DNA of 48,601 nt. Source: Cyanophora paradoxa CCMP329 (Eukaryota; Plantae; Glaucophyta). The notes under the pieces are model-generated. The model had not been told where the DNA came from and did not search any database. It saw nothing but the letters and a program-made list of their open reading frames with translations. This document shows, piece after piece, positions 1 through 10,820 of this stretch. Position 1 is the first letter of the stretch; every line of letters starts with the position of its first letter. The position numbers were made by a program, and so were the translations under genes. The stretch covers positions 1 through 48,601 of the forward strand of contig QPMI01000149.1 of NCBI GenBank assembly GCA_004431415.1, given 5' to 3'.

Positions 1-2084
1 GTTGCCACCGTCGCTGAAAGACGAGCACCGTTGCCGCCCTACCAATGCTGCTGCGTAGTGAGCGTCTCCGCTATTTCCTGCCACCTGGCCGGACCCAGGA
101 TACACCGTAGCATCCGTCAAGTTCCTATGTAGCTCGAGCCACCGCCACCTCCAACATTCTTGCTATTGGGTTCTCTGACACTCCGCTCCTGCTGGACCAG
201 AGCCTCCACCGAAGTAACCCCACCACCCACCACCGAACCTGTAGCCGCTTGAATCAGGCCCAGTCTCTCCACCTTGGCGCAAAGTTCCCGGGTTGCTGGG
301 CCTGGCCCTGAGGCCACAACACCGGCTCCGCCAGCGGTTTGGGTGCCTCCTTGAGCCGGTATCTCTCCGGTTACTCCAACCAACCCAGCCGCACCACCGG
401 TCAACCCCCCGCCTACTCCCCCGCCGCCATTCGAATCACATGTACCCCACCTCGGCCCTGCAACAACCAAGTCGGTCCTGCAACGCGCTGAATTGCAGAA
501 CGACCACCACCGCGCCGTTTTTGTACTCCGGATCGACGCTATGGCTCCAGCCCCTTCCACCACCTCCGTAGACGGTAGCAGTGGCAGTCCCCGATACACC
601 CTTTGGGCCGCCGCATCCAACAACAAGGTGAGCGTCTCCCCCGAGGACACAGCCAATGTACCAACTACGCAAGCACCCGCGCCTCACGGACCCCCGTACC
701 TGCGCGTTCTCCGCCTCCACCCCCGGCCGCCCATACGATGACACGCACAGCCACAGTCCCCGTTGTACTACGAAAGTCTGGTCGGCCCCGGTGTAGGAGA
801 ATGTACCCAAAACAGGAGCGTTTGCAGTTGTTGCACTGGCAGACGAGGACTGAGGGCCTTCCTCGCCGATCTGGTTGACGCCCTTGATGGTGTAAGTGTA
901 AGTGTTCCGTAAACGGTCGTTGTGTCCGAAAGGGGCTGCTCGTGTCGCTGGCAAGGAACACGCCACCCTGTAGATGTTGTAGGAGACGGTGACGCCGTCA
1001 CCGGCACCGACCACTCGAGCACAACAGGCTGTGCTGCCCCCGCCGCGGGGGTTGCAGTGAGCCCAGTGGGCGCCCCCGGGTCCGTGTGACGTACGCCGCA
1101 ATACTCTTCGGCCCTCCCCTCCGTGTTCGTCGCGGAGATCTGGTACTCGTACCCTGTACCCCAGACGGTGGTCGTGTCGCTGTAGGAGTTTGGTCGCGGA
1201 GTCTGTGAGGTAGGCCCCGTCTCTGTAAATCTTGTATCCCGTCGCTCCGTGGACGCAGTCCAGCTGAGGCTGACAGGCTGCTGCTGGTCGTTGGGTGCTG
1301 ATGCCGTCACGTTCGTGGGGGCGTTGGCATAGTCCAGACCAGGAGCGGATCGGACTTGTCGTATTCGACACCGCCCACGATGCCGGCCACCTGGTAAGAG
1401 TATTCCGTGCCCCACGTAGAGCAGTGCTATCGTCAATGTACGAGGTAGACAGGGCACTGCTCGCAAATCCGATTGGCGTACCGTTCCTGTAAATTCGAAT
1501 CGAGTCCGCGCCCTCCATGGCCACCAGTTGATTGTGACGACTATGGCGGGTTTCGGGAAGCCCGAAGACGCGGGGCCGCCCCCGGCAATAAAATCGCCGT
1601 AGGTCTGGGCCGTGGCGGTCGTGAGCGTGGTGTAGGCTTCGATCTGCGGGCTGAAGCCGCCTATGCCTTGGAAGAGAATGTAATTGCTCATGGCACCCTC
1701 GTGGGTGTAGAGAAGCGACTGTGCGTAGGTTGTGGGCGGGGCTTTGCCATCAGAGCCGTGCTGCTGCTGCCCTGTTCGCGAACCGCCGCCACGCGGTAGA
1801 GTCGCTGGGCCCCAAACTAAAGGGAGAGTCCGTGTAGGTGACGGTTGGCGCATTCACCGTGGCCACGAGATCCCAGGGGCCGTTGATGCTGGTCGCCCTG
1901 TACACCTTGTACTTGACGGCGTTGGTGACCGCGACCCAGTTCAGCTGAAAGCCGTACGTACTGTTCCCGTTGTTGAGCACGGAGCCCGATCGCACCTGGG
2001 GCCTGCCACAGTCAGCGAGATCGGCTCCACGCCATACTGCGGAGCCTGCACCACCTGCTTTTTCACGAATACGAAGCGGGGCAT
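1..2084 (-). pseudogene. Frameshifted FN3-repeat + glycine-rich protein (putative virion fibre/attachment protein); may be two genes split at the ATG at 1691
   Basis: Stitched frames give FN3 motifs (LNWVAVTNAVKYKVYR; APTNVTAS..VSLSW..ATGYKIYRDG; PGAPTGLTAT..YTYTIKGVNQIGEEGPQS), then FSYTGADQTFVV..VWAAGGGGG and GGGGGSSYI. ATG in GAAAATG at 2084. Confidence 0.65.
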
Positions 2085-2122
2085 TTTCCTCTACGATCCG
2101 AAAAAATATCTGCCCCGGGTAA

Positions 2123-2800
2123 ATGACTTCCAACTGGTACCAGACCCTCAGCGGCTCACTTGACGTTGGCAACAACACCAAGGATTTCGCACGCATACCC
2201 TCCGGCAGTTACGTCGACGTCTTTCTGCAGAATCCCGTCGTGATTCAGGTCGTTCAGAACGCCTACGCCACGCCCAAGATTTATTCCTACCAGCTCTTCT
2301 TCGACCCTCTGAGCCTCAGCGCAGAGGTTATCGAGCTGCTGCACGAATCAGGACTCGTGAAAAGGTGGCACCTGCCACGGCCACTGCCAACGTCTTGCGC
2401 TGTCTCGAGGTCAAGTTCAGGGAGACGGGGTACGGCCCCACCGTGAACCGGTACCCCAGTTCTTCGAATCTTCCGGGTACGGGAACTTACCAGATGAGGG
2501 GTACGCTCAAGGGCGACGTGCTCTTCACGAAATTCAATCCAAGTCCCGCGACCCTGGGGCCCTCTACACGGGCGGCAACCCACGCGGCTCGACTCTACCC
2601 CGCTTCCCCTTCACCTTTTTCAGGTTCCAGGTCTTCCCCTCTCCTACGCCGCCGACCAGCCCCACTTCAGCACGGGCGCCAGCCTCTGCGCGGAGCTGCG
2701 TGAGTGCTCGATTTCCTACGCGTACGGCACCGACGCTGACTCTGTGCCTGGGGCCCGCGTCATGAACATCGGTGGCGACATCACCCTCTTTCACGGATAA
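2123..2800 (+). pseudogene. Putative virion structural protein A (about 225 aa, about 3 frameshifts), paralog of protein B
   Basis: MTSNWYQ..QNPVVIQVVQN..SGLVKR/..LRCLEVKF../GGNPRGSTLPRFPFTFFRFQVF/AELRECSISY..TLFHG* with TAA at 2798-2800. Collinear similarity to 2824-3635. Confidence 0.55.
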
Positions 2801-2823
2801 TCTTTCTCATTTGAGGTCGCAAA

Positions 2824-3635
2824 ATGCCGACCACCTCGGCCACCATCGTGAAGACCGTGTCTGCCGGCTCGATCGTCCCCGATTTCTACGGCAACGCTGG
2901 GAACGTGGCCAACGCAGGGACGGACAAGGTGGAGTGGGACGGAAACTACGCCACCCCGCTCACCGTGAGGGTCCAGAATCCCGTCATGTTGCGCGTCACC
3001 TCCAACGATTTCGAGAATCCGCCTCCTGCTCCGTGTACGTGTACTTTGACATCGACTCGGGCGTGAGCGCGGATGAGGCGGAGGCGCTCTGGCTCTCGGG
3101 CCTCCTGAAAAAGATAGAGCCCTCTGTGCCTGATCGGCCCGCCATTCGCGTGCTCGAACTCAAGTTCACCGCTAACACCGCCCTCACTCGCAAATTCGGG
3201 AATGGTGCGAATCCGAACATCAAAACGCATTTAGATGGCGCCCTCATCGATGCCACACACAAGACCACGCAGGCCGTTCCCTTTGAGATGTACAACCTCT
3301 GGAAGATGACCGCAAAGGAGATGATGACGAATGCCACACCGGGCGGCGCCTCGGGTACCGATTATTCATACGGCGCCTCGAATCCCCGTACCCAGGTCTG
3401 GCCCCGGCTCCTCTTCACGAAATTCACTTTCAAATTGTACAACAACATCGCCGGAATGCCTACCTCTGGAATGGTCGTGGGCTCTACCCTCATGGCCGAA
3501 CTAATTGAGGCAGAGGCGGACTACACGACTGCGACTACCAACTCGACAGCGCCAGGCGCCGGAGCCGAAGTTTACGTGGCCTGGGAAACGGTCGGTCGCG
3601 AGTACGACACCAAGATTCACACCACTAGCGTCTAG
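2824..3635 (+). CDS. Putative virion structural (capsid-like) protein B, about 270 aa, one frameshift near 3020
   Basis: AAAATG start. ORFs 2824..3066 and 2772..3635 join into a globular, T/N/G/V-rich, beta-like protein with no introns. Confidence 0.55.
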
Positions 3636-3640
3636 ACTGG

Positions 3641-3987
3641 CTAAGCTGCATTAGCACCTGTGTCGCCTCCATCATCTCCCGAATCTCCTCGCTCTTCTCC
3701 TGTAAATTGGCGTACCCCCTCTCTTCTTGCGAATCTCCGACATTGATGCCAGCGCAGGTTCTCCCTCCTGTAGTCCAGCGGGTTGCCGTTGATGTGTTCC
3801 ACGTAGCGTCCACGTGGCGACTTCCCGAGGATCAGCTGGGAGAGGTAGTGCTTGCGCCCTCCAAACGTCTTGCTCACCCTGTCCCTGTCCACTCTCCAGG
3901 GAAACTCCAAGGCACTCGGGGTACGTCCGAGTTGACCAGGACGTTGTAGGCGACGTCTTGCGAGTCGGTGCACCGGAGCAGGGCCAT
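3641..3987 (-). CDS. HNH endonuclease (HNH_3 / phage-type), frameshifted
   Basis: Motif YLSQLILGKSPRGRYVEHINGNPLDYRRENLR. CAAAATG start at 3987 is in another frame. Confidence 0.75.
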
Positions 3988-4008
3988 TTTGCCCTAGGTT
4001 CAGAAAAA

Positions 4009-4131
4009 CCTGGGACTTGGGACTTGGACTGGGACTTGGGACTTGGGACTTGGGACTTGGGACTTGGGACTTGGGACTTGGGACTTGGGACTTGGGACTT
4101 GGGACTTGGGACTTGGGACTTGGGAAGAGTT
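4009..4131 (+). repeat. (GGGACTT)n heptamer array, about 16 units
   Basis: Direct reading. Bounded by CCTGGG and AAGAGTT. Confidence 0.95.
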
Positions 4132-4231
4132 GAAACCCAGGTCCCGGCCAGACTTTCTCCAGGATCAGAAATTTGTCAGACAAGTCAGGTGAGTTTTTCT
4201 ACCGACTTTTTTACTCCTACCACTCCTCATA

Positions 4232-4278
4232 CTCTTTTTTACTCGTAGTCTTTTTTACTCGTAGTCTTTTTACTCGTA
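4232..4278 (+). repeat. Three near-identical 15-16 bp direct repeats ((G)TCTTTTTTACTCGTA)
   Basis: Direct reading, with further degenerate copies at about 4190-4230. Confidence 0.8.
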
Positions 4279-4558
4279 TCCCATCTCGTACCCTCCTTCT
4301 CTCGACATCTCACACGAAAACTCCTACCCCTCTTCACATCCGTTTTCGGTTGCATACTCTCGTGAGCTTTCATGTCCAGTATCATGCTACAAGTCGTACA
4401 CCAGTTCAGACTCTACCTCGCTTGAAATCTCACCTGGAATGTCACCAGAAACGTCATATGCAGATTTCCGTACCCCTCTACATGTCTGCCCGGTGGTTAG
4501 GGACTTGGCGCGGCAAACTCTCAGATCCAGAGAGATTCTGGGCCCAGACCCTGAGTCT

Positions 4559-4620
4559 AACTCTTCCCAAGTCCCAAGTCCCAAGTCCCAAGTCCCAAGT
4601 CCCAAGTCCCAAGTCCCAGG
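4559..4620 (+). repeat. AACTCTT(CCCAAGT)7CCCAGG array, inverted relative to 4009-4131
   Basis: Direct reading. Confidence 0.95.
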
Positions 4621-4691
4621 ATCGCGCCAAGTCGTAACTGAATAGTCGGCCAATTTTTACAAGTATGTACAATGGAATGACGCAATACTAT

Positions 4692-5758
4692 TTACAGCAT
4701 CTCAAAGTCAGAGTCATCGTCATCGGAAACCAACTCAATGAGGCCCTCGGGCGCCGACTTAAGGGGAATGCGGGGAAGGGACTGCGCTGCCTGCACCAAG
4801 TCCTGCCGCTCGCGCTCGCGCTGCGCCGCCAAGGCCGCTGCCGCCTCTGCCTCGCGCTGCTGCTGAGCCTCGATGCGCGCCTTGAGCTCGGCCGCCTCCT
4901 TCTGCTTGCGCTCGGCGATCCGCGCCTTGTTGATCTGGTACTGGACAAGGCGCTCGTGGCGCCGCTTGCGCTCCAACTCCTTGCGGAGCTCGTTGCAGAG
5001 GACGCGCTTCTCAATGGTCTTGACGTGCTGAGTCAGGCGCTCGCTGTAGTGTGACGTCACGCGAGAACGGGCAATGCCGGCGCCGAGCTTCAAGTCCTTC
5101 TCGTGTGCCTTGGCGGGGTCCTTGACGCGCTCGGAGTTGTCGGTGAATGACGTAGTCTCCATGAACTTCTTCTTGACGATTGACTTGGTCTTGATAATGC
5201 GGCGCTTGCGAGTCGGGTTTTCGTTGTCGCCTTCAGAGTCAGAAGACGACTCAGAGTCGTATGGAATCGGCACGTCAAAGTCGATGAAGTCGTTGATGTC
5301 AGACTCGACGTCAGAGGCCTCGGACTTGGCGTCATCGGCGGGCTCGGGGGCGGGCTCGGCGACGGGCTGAGGGGCAGATGACGACGATGACGGAGGGGGG
5401 TAATTCGTGAAGACTTGAGGGGGATAGGCCCAGGCGAGCGTCTCGGCAGCAGACTCGGCGAAAAGCTTGGGGTCGCCCCAGCCGTTGGCGTCTTGACCCA
5501 GCCGGGGACGGGGGCACGTCGACGGGGGCTCGGGCTTGGGTTGCTTGGACTTGGATTTCTTGGCCTTGGACGTGAAGGCGGACTTGGGAGAAGTTGCACT
5601 TCGGGGCCAGTGGCGCGTAAGATGGCATAATTGTAGATGTACCCCAGAGCGTCGGCGCGCTGCTCCATCTCAGGGGTAGCCCCTTGAGTGCCACCGGAGT
5701 TAGCCCACGTTGCTTGGACAAAGGCGAAGTCCTCGGCAAGCTCAGCGGGAATCGACAT
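4692..5758 (-). CDS. Orphan protein with acidic tract, basic NLS-like motif and coiled coil (frameshifted in the middle)
   Basis: MSIPAELAEDF.. joined to ..DSESSSDSEGDNENPTRKRRIIK..ELRKELERKRRHE..EAAELKARIEAQQQRE..DFEML*. Confidence 0.6.
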
Positions 5759-6173
5759 CTGCGCAAAGGGAAAAGAAATCAGCAAAGGCAAAACGTGAGG
5801 TGACTGTGAGGGCGGACTTGTGAAAATTCGGAGAGGCAGGTTTCCTTGGGCTGAGAGAAGGCGGCGAACCCGTTTCAAGAGTGAGGCAAAATGGCGGCGG
5901 ACCGCGGTTTTGTGGGCGAATTTTTTCCTGGGCTAGTTCGCAACGGAAAACGTTGCCAACTGGCCTGAAAAAGCCAAATTTAGCGTTGGACCGAAGACAG
6001 AAAAAGAGCCGGCCTGACGGAAATTGCCCGAGTGCGTCCGCCGAAGGTCGAGTCTCGGATGGGGGGTACACCCTCAGGGGCCCCCCTGGCCCCTCACCCT
6101 GGTAGTACCCTCTCAAAGGGATTTTCGAAGCCGTACAATTCTTGGTAAGTCTCGTAATCCGGGCTGTACCCCC

Positions 6174-6563
6174 TCACAATCTGCGGGAGCCCATTGAAAG
6201 CCTCCGTCTATCCTCTCTCAATTCCCTGCGGAAAAGTCTACGGTCTTCTCGAGCTTCGCGCGTCACGCCAGCTGGGCGTGGTCTATGATTGTTAGGGTTG
6301 TCGTAGCCTGGTCCCACCAGCCTCACGAAATTTTCGCGTATGGCCTCGGGGAGACTCTGGAAACGGTTCGTTGCGTGGAACTCGATCCATTCATTGAATC
6401 GACGCGGATATTGACGGATGACTTCAAGCACGCCCTGTGTGTTGGGCTCTGGTGTTATGTCGGGAATGTCATGTCCTGTGAGGTGCCAACGCCAGAACTC
6501 GCGCAGCCTCTCGAATGCCATATGCAACTCAAAGGGGAAATCGTAATAGAGATTGCCTGACAT
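6174..6563 (-). CDS. Orphan 129-aa protein with Arg-rich C-terminus
   Basis: AAAAATG start. Intact ORF MSGNLYYDFPFELH..REDRRLFRRELREDRRR. Confidence 0.55.
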   Translation of the reverse strand: MSGNLYYDFPFELHMAFERLREFWRWHLTGHDIPDITPEPNTQGVLEVIRQYPRRFNEWIEFHATNRFQSLPEAIRENFVRLVGPGYDNPNNHRPRPAGVTREAREDRRLFRRELREDRRRLSMGSRRL

Positions 6564-6613
6564 TTTTCTCCCCCTCCGAAAATTTCCCCGTTTTGAGTCC
6601 AGACTCTGATTCC

Positions 6614-6668
6614 AACTCTTCCCAAGTCCCAAGTCCCAAGTCCCAAGTCCCAAGTCCCAAGTCCCAGG
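6614..6668 (+). repeat. AACTCTT(CCCAAGT)6CCCAGG array (third copy)
   Basis: Direct reading. Confidence 0.95.
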
Positions 6669-6798
6669 TCCCATTTTTCTCCCATTTCAGTCCGAGATTT
6701 TGCCCAAGTCCAAATCCGGGCCCGGGATTCGAACCCTCGTTTTCGGTCGATTTCACGCGTGAAAAACGCACTTTTCGGCCTTTTCCGATTTTTCCTTT

Positions 6799-6931
6799 CT
6801 CGCGATCGCAGAAATGCCCCCGATCTCGAAATCGCGATCGAAAAGGGTCGCGATCGGGAGAAAGTCGCGATCACCAGGGTCGCGATCGGGTCGCGATCGC
6901 CGCGATCGCCAGCCTCGGAGGGGGTACCCCC
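6799..6931. repeat. Cluster of about 7 (T)CGCGATC motifs ending in the palindrome GGGGGTACCCCC
   Basis: Direct reading. Confidence 0.7.
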
Positions 6932-7344
6932 ACAGCTGTTGCGGCGGTTATAAGAACCTCCGCAATCCAAGCGTCACTTCCGAGTCTCGAGCTCTCGGAG
7001 TTGCCTTTTCGCGTTTGGCCCATTGATGGCCCTCCTATATATATTATTTCTATGCAATAGAGCTGACCCGATCGAGCGCAGACGTCTTGAGGGAGCGTCG
7101 GCGACGGTCAGAGGCCAAGTTCGCACCTGCAAGCAAGGTTCGCGAGTCTCTCTCCTGCCCGACGCCCTCGAGAGCTAGACAGCGGGGCCCCAGCCCTGGC
7201 GGCGTCTCTCAGGTGCCGCTGCCAGTGCAAGGCTGCGCTGCCTAGATAGATCTATAGATTCCTTGCGCGCGCGCGCGCCCCTGAGATTGTTTTTGCTGAG
7301 GCTCACTCCACCATCAGGCACAATCAGGCGCCGGCCTGCTCCCC

Positions 7345-7625
7345 GGGGCGGGCCGCCCCGCCCCGCGGCCGCCCCGCCCCGCGGCTGCCCCGCCCCGCGG
7401 CTGCCCCGCCCCGCCCGCCCGCGGCCGCCCGCCCCGCCCCGCCCGCGGCCGCCCCGCCCCGCCCCGCCCCGCCCCGCCCCGCCCCGCGGTTGCCCCGCCC
7501 CGCCCCGCCCCGCCCCGCCCCGCCCCGCCCAGCTGCTAGCACAGCAGCTGCTAGTGCTAGCTAGCCAGCTAGCAGTAGCTAGCTAGCCAGTCAACAGTAG
7601 CTAGCCAGCTAGCAGTAGCTAGCTG
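7345..7625. repeat. (GCCCC)n tract followed by (GCTA)-rich simple repeat
   Basis: Direct reading. Confidence 0.85.
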
Positions 7626-8739
7626 ACGCTGTAAATATTCACGTACATATATATGCAGCTGAGCGCAGGGCCCGGCCGCGGCGGCGGGCGGGGCGGCGGG
7701 GGGGGCGGGGCAGGGCCGAACAAGTGTCAGAACCGTTCGGATTCCGCCGCGGTTCTGACGTGGTAGAACACATTTTTGCAGCGTTTCTGCGGCGGAATTT
7801 TGGTTCCGACACGAATTCTGGCGAATGATGACAAAATTATGGCAGATGTGCTCATGTGTCAGAAAGCGGAATCGGCCGTTCCGACAGCCGGAACAGAGGC
7901 AGAAAACTTTTTCTGCTCTCCGTTCCGTCCGCCAGAACGGACCCCCCCTTCCACCTGTGAGGGATCCCGGAGCTCGACAAGACGACGAAGGACCGTAAAA
8001 GATAAGGGGAGCGGGCTCGAGAAGACGAAGACGACTGTTTGTTACGTGAGTGCAACGTAACGTAACGCACTTCGGACAGCGTGAAAGATGAATATTGCAA
8101 TTGATACGAACACCTGGTACCAGCTGCAGGGGTACCTAGCTGTCCTGCAGCTGGTAACGTCAACGACTGCCCGACCCCAGGCTCCCCTCCACCCCTCTCT
8201 CGCTCGCCTAGTAGCCCCAGCTCCGCGCCCCGCCCCCCCAACCCTCTGCCCATGGTGCCTCCGTCCCCTTGCGTCCCACCCCCCAATGCGCCACCCCCTC
8301 TCTCTCCTTCCGTATGCCGAACCCGGCTGCCCACCCGACGATTTCGAAACCCTGGCCTCGCCTGATCTCATCGTAGATTATCACCTGTGGGGGGCGTCCC
8401 CCGTCGGCTACTCACTGCGCAGGTGCTGAGGGGACACCAGCGCACTCAGCGCCCTTCCCACCTCGCTGTCTGCTGGGTCTGAAGCCCTGGAGAGTCGGGG
8501 CCAGTGACAGCAGGAGCCCTGGGCAAGCCTTTGAAGCTAGTATAGTCGGCCACCTCAGGAGTAGGAGTCTGTACTGCGGTGTTCCTGAATATACGAGGGA
8601 TCACGGGAAAAAAAATCCTGCAGCTGGTACCTTGATTTAATCCTCCTAGTAGGCGCATCCGCGCATCGAGAATCGAGATGCGCTGCTGCGCTGTTGCTGC
8701 TAAGAAGTTTGCTGTAGCAGCTTACGCTCTGTGCTCCCG

Positions 8740-9392
8740 ATGGCTCTCTCCCGGCGCCCCCAGCGGCGCTCCCTCCTCAGCCTGGCAGGCTTTTCCATGT
8801 GGTCGTGCTCCTTGTCCTCCTCGCTTCCCCCGCTGCGCATGCCAGCGGGGCTCGGGCTTCGAAACGCGCTAAGACCGCCTCTCCTAGCCCCTCGCCTTCC
8901 CCTCCGCCTGCGCCCACCGAGTCGCTGGCGGCGGCTCCCACTGAGTCCCCCGCCATAACGCCCACGCCGACAACTAGTCCGGCACTATGTTCCGGCACTT
9001 CGGGCCCGCAGCCCGCGGCGGGGCCCCAAACGTTCGACCAGGCTGCTGCCATGGAGCTCATATGCATCTACCAACTTCAGCAGCGCAATGCCTTTCTTGA
9101 AAATGTGCATCTGCAGCGCCCGGGCCCGTCCGCCGTGCCGCCGGCCCCCTCTGCCACTTCGTCCCCCATCCCGCATTATAATCTCACGGAGGGCTCCACC
9201 AACGCCGGCTCGTCTTCATCTGGCAACACCGCGCGCGAGCGCAATGCCCGTGAGCCCCTTTCCGAGCGTGAACGCCAGCGCCTCCACTATGAGGGGCGCT
9301 GCTGCGCCTCGCGCGCGCCGCGTGAGGTGAGCGCAGGCAGCGGGGCGGGGCGGGTGGGGTGGGGGTACCGGATCGACCCGGGGTACCCCTGA
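8740..9392 (+). CDS. Possible hypothetical protein with hydrophobic N-terminal segment and Pro/Ser/Thr-rich region
   Basis: ORF 8799..9392 (VVLLVLLASPAAHA..SPSPSPSPPP..MELICIYQLQQRNAFLE). Needs a frameshift to reach the ATG at 8740. Confidence 0.3.
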
Positions 9393-10820
9393 CGAAGGCC
9401 CTGGAGCGGGGGCCGGGCTGCTGTCGGGCTCGCGGCCCTGCTGCGCCTCGCGCGCGCCGCGTGAGGTGAGCGCGGGCAGCGGGGCGGGGCGGGCGGGGTG
9501 GGGGTACCGGATCGACCCGGGGTACCCCTGACGAAGGCCCTGGAGCGGGGGTCGGGCGGCTGTCGGGCTCGGGGCGCTGCTGCGCCTCGCGCGCGGCGCG
9601 TGAGGTGAGCGCGGGCAGCGGGCGGGGCGGGCGGGTGGGGGTACCGGATCGACCCGGGGTACCCCTGACGCGTACGAAGGCCCTGGAGCGGGGGCGGGCG
9701 GCCATCGGGCTTGCGGCCGGGCTCGCGGCCCTGCTGCGCCTCGCACGCGGCGCGTGAGCGCTGGCAGCGGGGCGGGGCGGGCGGGTGGCCCGGGGTACCC
9801 CTGACGAAGGCCCTGGAGCGGGGGCCGGGCTGCTGTCGGGCTCGGGGCGCTGCTGCGCCTCGCGCACGCCGCGTGAGATGAGCGCGGGCAGCGGGGGGGG
9901 GCGGGTGGGGTGGGGGTACCGGATCGACCCGGGGTACCCCTGACGAAGGCCCTGGAGCGGGGGCCGGGCGGCTGTCGGGCTCGCGGCCCTGCTGCGCCTC
10001 GCGCGCGCCGCGAGAGGTGAGCGCGGGCAGCGGGGCGGGGCGTGCGGGGCGGGGGTACCGGATCGACCCGGGGTACCCCTGACGAAGGCCCTGGAGCGGG
10101 GGTCGGGCGGCTGTCGGGCTCGCGGCCCTGCTGCGCCTCGCGCGCGGCGCGTGAGGTGAGCGCGGGCAGCGTGGCGGGGCGGGTGGGGTGGGGGTACCGG
10201 ATCGACCCGGGGTACCCCTGACGAAGGCCCTGGAGCGGGGGCCGGGCTGCTGTCGGGCTCGCGGCGCTGCTGCGCCTCGCGCGCGCCGCGAGAGGTGAGC
10301 GCGGGCAGCGGGGCGGGGCGGGCGGGCGGGGGTACCGGATCGACCCGGGGTACCCCTGACGAAGGCCCTGGAGCGGGGGCCGGGCGGCTGTCGGGCTCGG
10401 GGCGCTGCTGTGCCTCGCGCGCGCCGCGTGAGGTGAGCGCGGGCAGCGGGGCGGGACGGGACGGGGCGAAGGGCGGCGAAGGGCAGGGAGGCGAGCTGCC
10501 GGGCGCACCCGCAGCGTCGCGTCGGCCTCCTCCTGCGGCGGCAGCCCGTCCTCATCGCCGCCGCCCGCGCCGCCCTCGCCGCCAGCGGACGCCCGACTCT
10601 GCGGGGAGGACGCGGCCAGCGAGAGGGAGGCGGGAGGCGTCGGTTGAGGCCGGGCGGGACGGGGCGGGGCGGCCGCGGGGCGGGGCAGCGCGAGCTGCCG
10701 GGCGCACAGGAAACGTCGCGTCAGCTGCAGGCTCCTCGTGCGGCGGCGGCCCGTCGACGTCCTCAGCCGCTGAGCCTCCTCGTGCAGCGGCGGCGCGGCC
10801 TCTGCGATCTGCAGATCAGT
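9287..10820 (-). CDS. Putative multi-exon low-complexity repeat protein encoded by tandem exon-intron units (5' end unresolved)
   Basis: Phase-0 60-nt exons AQQ(G/R)(R/P)EPDS(S/R)P(A/T)PAPGPSSG are flanked by AG and GTACCC. Terminal exon reads AQQRPS* with the stop at 9287. Confidence 0.5.
9293..10460. repeat. Tandem repeat, about 139-bp unit, about 8.5 copies
   Basis: GTACCGGATCGACCCGGGGTACCCCTGACG recurs at about 9365, 9504, 9641, (9790, partial), 9916, 10055, 10194 and 10333. Confidence 0.95.

What the first reader, a model, noticed from the sequence alone, without database searches (positions are those of the whole stretch)
1..7060. Unclassified endogenous virus-like element in an algal chromosome
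Seen: composition shift, no host-style introns, 38 bp between divergent ATGs (2084/2123), 23 bp between genes A and B, and shared AAATG start contexts at 2084, 2123, 2824, 3987 and 6563. Gene set: FN3/Gly-rich protein, two paralogous beta-rich proteins, HNH, orphans. Known: protist genomes harbour integrated Polinton-like viruses and virophages with such accessory genes. Inference: this is the right part of an integrated DNA virus. I could not match its structural pair to the roughly 400-600 aa double-jelly-roll major capsid proteins of those groups, so it may be a new lineage. Best candidate for an undescribed system here.
Basis: partly seen in the sequence, partly recalled or inferred. Interest (0 to 1): 0.88.

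Follow-up and report, generated by a model that had tools for sequence, protein, structure and literature searches.

The report
Algal provirus with twin DNA-binding genes
This is one end of an element found in dozens of copies in the alga Cyanophora paradoxa, likely an integrated DNA virus, whose two sister genes are predicted to fold like viral single-stranded-DNA-binding proteins (not like capsid) and sit head to head with a likely attachment spike whose tip differs between copies.

Summary
The observation largely holds. Bases 1 to about 6.9-7.25 kb are the right arm of a multicopy element. Its genes match 70 EukProt gene models on 42 contigs, those looked up all labelled Cyanophora paradoxa. 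Short-read contigs carry an extra base at each frameshift of genes A and B, so these are probably assembly errors. A (226 aa) and B (270 aa) are paralogues, consecutive or fused on 28 of 28 contigs that hold both. Both models match OB-fold proteins, best T7 gp2.5 (Z 4.9 and 5.1, modest), a virus-restricted SSB family. The divergent gene is an FN3 stalk with a swappable tip, likely a spike. An HNH gene, two orphans, a shared upstream motif, three G-rich 7-mer arrays and one candidate spliceosomal intron complete the arm. No capsid, polymerase, ATPase or integrase lies in the window, so the virus class is open. C. paradoxa is already known to hold 366 viral capsid-gene hits. Verdict: a new variant of a known kind; the SSB-like pair with the spike appears undescribed.

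The parts
1..2084 (-). Gene F: multi-FN3 stalk (about 420 aa shared between copies) with a glycine-rich C-terminal tip; runs off the window's left end; many frameshifts in this copy. Likely attachment spike.
   Evidence: tblastn of intact copies P0068-P0070; Pfam; PHROGs tail/virion families E 1e-20 to 1e-3 for 2 of 3 copies; three different tips among 4 full-length copies
2085..2122 (.). 38-bp bidirectional intergenic stretch (likely shared promoter of F and A); holds the upstream motif on the minus strand
2123..2800 (+). Gene A, 226 aa in intact copies; predicted OB fold of T7 gp2.5 type; three frameshifts in this copy
   Evidence: intact copies P0017, P0038; frame switches at aa 80/81, 146, 173 match extra bases in short-read contigs at 2359, 2555, 2635; model pLDDT 69.5, pTM 0.73; fold searches
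2824..3635 (+). Gene B, 270 aa in intact copies; paralogue of A; predicted OB fold of T7 gp2.5 type; one frameshift in this copy
   Evidence: 97-100% identity to P0057/P0060 in two frames; extra base at 3018 in short-read contigs; model pLDDT 56.4, pTM 0.66; fold searches
3625..3987 (-). Gene C: small HNH_3 endonuclease (about 120 aa, two inferred frameshifts), convergent with B
   Evidence: Pfam HNH_3 E 1e-5 above cut-off; six PHROG HNH families, best E 7e-7; frames read
4011..4125 (+). Array 1: 16.7 copies of a 7-nt unit with a G3 run (fits the G-quadruplex pattern)
4072..4618 (.). Inverted arms 4072-4149 and 4541-4618 (78 nt, 90%) made of arrays 1 and 2 plus unique flank, around a 391-nt lower-GC spacer without a recognised gene, with a 16-nt repeat (4233-4278); candidate origin or packaging site
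   Evidence: role inferred
4565..4618 (-). Array 2: 7.7 copies of the same unit, opposite orientation; also present behind gene B in another copy
   Evidence: gene model P0062 matches 4553-4642 at 100% over 30 aa
4692..5758 (-). ORF D, about 355 aa (one inferred frameshift near 5600): proline-rich and acidic middle, basic patch, charged helical end; no family match; likely nuclear regulator
   Evidence: no Pfam or PHROG family; function inferred
5759..5817 (-). Candidate 59-nt spliceosomal intron ending directly before the ATG of ORF D (alternative donor at 5902)
   Evidence: not tested with RNA
6174..6563 (-). ORF E, 129 aa orphan with the shared upstream motif
   Evidence: no Pfam or PHROG family
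6620..6673 (-). Array 3: 7.7 copies of the same unit, upstream of ORF E
6680..7250 (.). Terminal region without a recognised gene, with a 32-nt repeat (6828-6890); the element's end lies somewhere here; TIR/TSD untestable without the left end

Best explanation
This is the right arm of a multicopy element of Cyanophora paradoxa, likely an integrated polinton-like DNA virus, whose paired genes A and B are predicted to be T7-gp2.5-type OB-fold proteins that would coat the single-stranded viral DNA made during replication, while the head-to-head gene F likely encodes the particle's attachment spike with an exchangeable tip. Shown: copy number, fixed F-A-B order, paralogy, three different tips on one stalk, read-supported open frames of A and B in the bulk of copies, a shared upstream motif. 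Predicted: the OB fold. Inferred: the copies stay silent in the chromosome until induced; F and A/B are then switched on together from the 38-bp bidirectional promoter; the G-rich arrays and their inverted arms act as origin or packaging signal; recombination between copies swaps spike tips; the HNH gene is a homing passenger or processes the DNA; ORF D acts in the nucleus. Capsid, polymerase, ATPase and integrase are assumed to lie left of the window.
For: Multicopy with purifying-looking conservation: 70 named models on 42 contigs (one may be this locus itself); A and B consecutive or fused on 28 of 28 contigs holding both; F next to A in 5 of 5; 14 intact A/B pairs spanning 66-99% (A) and 65-100% (B) identity with similar trees. 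Short-read contigs of two runs restore the frames of A (3 of 3 breaks) and B (1 of 1). Compact genes with a shared start context and motif. T7 gp2.5 is rank 1 for both models among 48,161 chains (B: Z 5.1, rmsd 3.9, 121 aligned; A: Z 4.9, rmsd 3.7, 115 aligned). In the viral library both models have the same top hit (E 4.5e-4 and 5.7e-4), followed by phage ssDNA-binding, DUF2815 and giant-virus proteins. T7-like SSBs are described as specific to viruses (PMC4889955, passages). F copies hit phage tail/virion families; fibre proteins with variable domains are reported for PLVs, C. paradoxa's among them (PMC12220804, passages). The host holds 366 MCP hits in two clusters of 272 and 94 (PMC10120064 supplement), and its virus-derived genes are methylated (PMC12344493, passages).
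Against: No hallmark virus gene is in the window and none was linked to A/B; none of the six C. paradoxa MCP contigs shown is among my 42 (a small sample of 366). The fold match is modest: Z about 5, which the tool warns may be only a common arrangement; PDB Foldseek best E 0.051; models at pLDDT 56 and 70 from shallow alignments. A and B lack an acidic C-terminal tail, and their pI is 4.8-7.7, unlike a typical SSB. Viruses with protein-primed polymerases are said to use non-OB SSBs (PMC4889955), and gp2.5-type SSBs are reported from Nucleocytoviricota and mriyaviruses, which weakens the polinton-like label. The join to host DNA at about 7 kb was not checked with reads.
Confidence: 0.55

Rival explanations
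1. Same integrated virus, but A and B are SSB-derived structural proteins of the particle: a genome-coating core, or the base that holds the FN3 spike.
For: F, A and B travel as one block (5 of 5); F and A share a 38-bp divergent stretch and start context; no acidic tail and neutral to acidic pI; F begins with a conserved 26-residue peptide before its first FN3-like segment.
Against: The best and longest structural matches are replication SSBs. Two searches turned up no paper describing gp2.5-type virion proteins (listings only).
Confidence: 0.2
2. The element is a small nucleocytovirus relative (mriyavirus-like) or a repeated piece of a giant-virus insertion rather than a polinton-like virus.
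For: gp2.5-type SSBs are known from mriyaviruses (PEV_26) and several NCLDV families (PMC11253617; bioRxiv 2026.08.29.747986). Giant-virus proteins are among the viral-library hits. The C. paradoxa MCPs in PMC10120064 Table S2 have NCLDV MCPs as best HHpred hits. Giant-virus insertions are reported in this host.
Against: At least 42 dispersed, young, frame-intact copies and an element end within about 4.3 kb of gene B's start fit an actively integrating small element better than a one-off giant insertion.
Confidence: 0.17
3. A capsid-less transposon or satellite that carries virus-derived cargo and is mobilised by a helper.
For: No capsid gene seen; arrays and inverted arms could be cis signals; the candidate intron shows host-type expression.
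Against: A capsid-less element has little use for a spike-like protein with diversified tips.
Confidence: 0.06
4. A and B are a split (two single jelly-roll) major capsid of a new virus lineage, as the first reader's 'structural pair' implies.
For: Two tandem paralogues of 226 and 270 aa sum to about 500 aa, near MCP size; fixed pairing.
Against: Both models align over 115-121 residues to gp2.5 and, by their titles, mostly to other OB-fold proteins. They hold about 8-10 strands interleaved with 3-5 helices. The host's known MCPs are single chains of about 410-465 aa when complete.
Confidence: 0.03

Closest known systems
Endogenous polinton-like viruses and related EVEs of protists, including the two C. 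paradoxa MCP clusters (Bellas et al. 2023, PMC10120064)
   Same: Same host; dozens of dispersed copies; GC offset; compact genes; frameshifts that vanish in short-read data; fibre-like and HNH accessory genes (PMC12220804).
   Different: No MCP, ATPase, polymerase or integrase linked here; a tandem gp2.5-type OB pair, an FN3-stalk spike and internal G-rich arrays were not found in the PLV papers I searched.
T7 gp2.5 / Enc34 / DUF2815 family of viral SSBs, with NCLDV members (ASFV CP312R, ranavirus P31K, mriyavirus PEV_26)
   Same: Predicted OB fold, best match over 115-121 residues for both paralogues; same group of viral-library hits.
   Different: 8-9% identity; no sequence-level match; no acidic tail; two paralogues in tandem, next to a spike gene rather than replication genes.
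Mriyaviricetes ('Gamadviridae'), small NCLDV relatives (PMC11253617)
   Same: Small protist DNA viruses with a T7-type SSB.
   Different: Their core genes (MCP, ATPase, VLTF2/3, HUH) were not testable here; one SSB is listed there, not a pair.
Telomere end-binding OB heterodimers (TEBP alpha/beta, POT1-TPP1; names and mechanism recalled; Cdc13, POT1, CST appear)
   Same: Two OB proteins and G-rich tandem repeats in one element.
   Different: Lower structural scores than gp2.5 (Z 2.9-3.9); the 7-nt unit is not the human-type repeat shown for the glaucophyte Glaucocystis (PMC3622300); the arrays are internal.

Membership tests
Polinton-like viruses (PLV) | Double jelly-roll MCP gene in the element | not testable with these tools
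   Not in the window; no genome held; Table S5 of PMC10120064 was cut before any C. paradoxa row
Polinton-like viruses (PLV) | A32/FtsK packaging ATPase and minor capsid protein | not testable with these tools
   Not among the 22 frames of 1-7 kb scanned; left part unavailable
Polinton-like viruses (PLV) | pPolB or primase-helicase, plus rve integrase or tyrosine recombinase | not testable with these tools
   As above
Polinton-like viruses (PLV) | Terminal inverted repeats and 14-40 kb length | not testable with these tools
   Only one end present; no long repeat of the end elsewhere in the window
Polinton-like viruses (PLV) | Dispersed multicopy insertion in a protist genome with GC offset | tested here: met
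   42 contigs; GC 58% against 72%
T7 gp2.5-type SSB | OB fold with best match to gp2.5/Enc34/DUF2815 | tested here: met
   Rank 1 for both models, but Z only 4.9-5.1; viral library E about 5e-4
T7 gp2.5-type SSB | Acidic C-terminal tail | tested here: not met
   Last 20 residues of 8 of 8 intact A/B copies examined are not acidic tails; so filed as 'folds like', not as a member
T7 gp2.5-type SSB | Detectable sequence homology to family profiles | tested here: inconclusive
   No Pfam, PHROG, PDB-sequence or phage tblastn match; remote OB homologues often escape such searches (PMC4889955)
T7 gp2.5-type SSB | Binds ssDNA | not testable with these tools
   Needs a binding assay
Jelly-roll major capsid protein (A or B) | Length of a double jelly-roll chain (about 400-600 aa) | tested here: not met
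   Intact copies are 226 and 252-270 aa
Jelly-roll major capsid protein (A or B) | Jelly-roll fold by structure search | tested here: inconclusive
   Models of moderate confidence; positive matches are to OB folds
Mriyaviricetes / small Nucleocytoviricota | NCLDV-type MCP, ATPase, VLTF2, VLTF3, HUH core genes | not testable with these tools
   Left part unavailable
HNH_3 endonuclease (PF13392) | Pfam score above curated cut-off | tested here: met
   25.5 bits against 24.8

The most novel reading that the evidence does not exclude
An undescribed lineage of nuclear, glaucophyte-specific integrating DNA viruses in which a duplicated phage-type SSB has become an obligate A/B heteromer that recognises the virus's own telomere-like G-rich arrays, a viral parallel of telomere end-binding proteins, to replicate or package the genome, with a cassette-swapped FN3 spike setting the host range.
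Probability: 0.12. Interest if true: 0.85.

Novelty: new variant of a known kind. Interest (0 to 1): 0.5.

Why it matters
My searches listed no paper that describes a glaucophyte virus gene by gene, although C. paradoxa is known to hold hundreds of capsid-gene hits. This family has dozens of young copies with read-supported open frames in a cultured alga, so it can be delimited in silico and induced in the lab. If the OB pair is confirmed in a polinton-like element, it adds a gp2.5-type SSB, so far tied to phages, giant viruses and mriyaviruses, to that group and bears on how small eukaryotic DNA viruses relate to Nucleocytoviricota. The constant-stalk, variable-tip protein is a direct handle on host recognition.

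Tried and rejected
No whole genome is held, so the left part, TIR/TSD and copy boundaries were not examined. IMG/VR scans with B, A, F, D and E queries found no relative (7 of 7); JGI metagenome scans neither (2 of 2). The 1.84-billion-protein search gave 6 hits, all EukProt tig models. A+B complex prediction gave no verdict (score 0.00, alignments not used, partner fold uncertain); it is no evidence either way. No row titled as a capsid or jelly-roll protein is among the listed fold-search rows; the tools state that such an absence excludes nothing. No RNA holder is on record. Two runs guessed to be RNA cover parts of F, B and C but not A; they may hold DNA, so expression is untested. Contig depth of about 500-9,500 in covered bins of the two high-depth runs was not used as a copy number. 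Reads were laid only on 1-4000, so the junction with host DNA, ORFs D and E and the intron are unchecked. The protein atlas did not answer. Earlier findings of the scan: nothing in 5 of 5 look-ups. The repeat unit as host telomere: rejected, since the glaucophyte tested has the human-type repeat (shown for Glaucocystis, not Cyanophora). Ordinary host genes or contaminant: rejected. True pseudogenes: disfavoured, though this one copy could carry real lesions. Kazlauskas and Venclovas 2012 is not held and is known only through citing papers. The supplement of PMC6704402 could not be read, Table S5 of PMC10120064 is cut, and bioRxiv supplements are closed; these could hold the MCP link or an earlier description.
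Full report
Observation. The first 7 kb differ from the rest of the window: GC 58.3% against 72.1%, with A/T runs five times more frequent. A third-order Markov contrast trained on 1-5500 against 10.5-48.6 kb stays positive in the held-out stretch 5501-6880, fades to about 7250 and then turns strongly host-like; 7751-8500 is again weakly positive in two of three bins. The element's end therefore lies between about 6.9 and 7.25 kb. The spacings (38 bp, 23 bp) and the five AAATG starts are as reported. I found a longer shared signal, an 8-nt T-rich box 9-10 nt before AAATG, in front of genes F, C and E (3 matches, 0 of 100 shuffles; pattern built after seeing the sites). One correction: ORF D starts directly behind a clean 3' splice signal with donor candidates 59 or 144 nt upstream, so 'no introns' is not safe.

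Host and copy number. A search with the open frame of B gave 14 proteins: 12 EukProt gene models, one ENA and one Logan protein. Exact look-ups label the EukProt clusters Cyanophora paradoxa; P0009, P0013 and P0014 were not looked up but share the naming. In all, 70 named models fall on 42 contigs, one of which may be this locus; A and B are consecutive or fused on 28 of 28 contigs holding both, and F is next to A in 5 of 5. Among 14 intact pairs A spans 66-99% and B 65-100% identity, with a divergent two-copy subfamily that groups with the two environmental B proteins. Of 24 runs listed, 20 hold the stretch, all under one organism label, in 15 studies. Contamination and an ordinary host gene family are thus unlikely.

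Frameshifts. The window's copy is broken: three frame switches in A, one in B, many in F. Short-read contigs of two runs carry one extra base at 2359, 2555, 2635 and 3018, the very places of the A and B switches, and show indels at 994, 1085, 1111, 1189 and 1523 in F (12 rows shown, 30 not shown). The bulk of copies is therefore in frame. The breaks here are most likely assembly errors, an artefact described for such elements (PMC10120064, section 4 part 1); real lesions in this one copy cannot be excluded.

Genes A and B. They are paralogues (hhalign probability 98.7, E 3e-16, 175 columns) with no sequence match in Pfam, PHROGs, PDB sequences or phage genomes. Models of intact copies reached pLDDT 69.5/pTM 0.73 (A) and 56.4/0.66 (B). 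Against 48,161 solved chains, T7 gp2.5 ranks first for both (A: Z 4.9, rmsd 3.7, 115 aligned; B: Z 5.1, rmsd 3.9, 121 aligned). DUF2815, Enc34 SSB, ASFV CP312R and other OB-fold proteins follow, many tied within 1 Z. In the viral library each model has 2 matches at E up to 0.001, with the same unnamed top hit, and the named rows include phage ssDNA-binding, DUF2815 and giant-virus proteins such as ranavirus P31K. Against this, Z near 5 is modest, PDB Foldseek gives no E under 0.001 (best 0.051, Enc34 SSB), and the two models share alignment rows, so they are not independent. The proteins lack an acidic tail and are neutral to acidic. I put the OB fold at about 75% and an ssDNA-coating role at about 50%. 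T7-like SSBs are described as virus-specific (PMC4889955, passages) and occur in NCLDVs, mriyaviruses and ariadnaviruses (passages), so the fold is itself the best marker of viral origin inside the window.

Gene F. Intact copies are 653-695 aa. They share about 420 aa of FN3 repeats and end in unrelated tips: a glycine-rich domain (P0070, and this window), a second type (P0068, P0071) and a third (P0069). Two of three hit phage tail or virion families. A constant stalk with exchanged tips is what a receptor-binding spike looks like; the role is inferred. PLV fibre proteins with variable domains are reported, including in C. paradoxa, but 'fibronectin' and 'FN3' do not occur in that paper's main text (PMC12220804, passages and supplement rows).

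Other genes. C is an HNH_3 endonuclease, a common PLV passenger. D and E have no family match and no IMG/VR relative. D's basic patch, acidic stretches and candidate intron suggest a host-transcribed nuclear protein (motif reading from recall).

How it likely works. Copies sit in the chromosome, probably silenced; virus-derived genes of this host are methylated (PMC12344493, passages). On induction, replication would expose single strands that A and B coat, with the arrays and inverted arms as cis signals. F would be made from the same bidirectional promoter and put on the particle. Recombination between the many copies would exchange tips. Only the gene set, order, copy number and tip diversity are shown; the fold is predicted; the rest is inference. 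The main rivals are a structural role of A/B (0.2) and a small NCLDV-type identity (0.17).

What is known. PMC10120064 lists 366 MCP hits for C. paradoxa in two clusters (272, 94); six representatives of 308-465 aa have NCLDV MCPs as best HHpred hits (supplement rows). I could not link them to A/B: no genome, Table S5 cut, PMC6704402 supplement unreadable. From PMC6704402 I saw passages only (long-read assembly, 9.2 introns per gene, mean 86 bp); from PMC8502044 one passage on adintovirus-like proteins in this host; from PMC3622300 passages on glaucophyte telomeres; PMC5405695 passages added nothing. Term look-ups in PMC11161782, bioRxiv 2026.06.19.733378 and 2026.10.13.758929 found no 'OB-fold' or 'SSB'. 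Nine library searches (listings) showed no description of this module; subscription journals and closed supplements were not seen.

Verdict. A real, young, multicopy endogenous virus-like element in a host already known to be full of them. What is new is the module: a tandem pair predicted to be gp2.5-type OB proteins, a swappable-tip FN3 spike and internal G-rich arrays. Class membership is untested. New variant of a known kind; interest 0.5; most novel reading 0.12 likely, 0.85 if true.

Noticed in passing
window 9293-10468: Tandem array of a 139-bp unit, 8.5 copies, each with a palindromic core, 2 kb right of the element's end; satellite or transposon end, unexplained.
   Followed up: no
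window about 33700-35600 (+): Intron-containing host gene with RING-, B-box- and MATH-like segments (TRIM-like; labels from recall) at 48-59% GC, far below its surroundings; possibly a recent or foreign gene.
   Followed up: partly
window 7340-8500: Host-like CCCCG and AGCT repeats, then a lower-GC stretch (7720-8500) that scores weakly element-like in two of three bins; may be another mobile-element end next to the insertion.
   Followed up: no
window 5759-5902 (-): Candidate spliceosomal intron just before ORF D; a CCGCCATTTT box (YY1-like, recalled) lies just upstream.
   Followed up: partly
EukProt models P0008/P0020 and P0032/P0067; P0007, P0010: A divergent two-copy subfamily (about 65% identity to the main family) groups with the only two environmental relatives, suggesting a second, independent invasion.
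   Followed up: partly
EukProt gene numbers g18397-g18401: Consecutive gene numbers place one copy at the end of one contig and another at the start of the next, hinting that the assembly breaks inside these elements.
   Followed up: no
window 903-968: Low-depth contigs in two runs skip 64 nt of gene F, and loose ends at 966-1295 show variant stalk sequences among copies.
   Followed up: no
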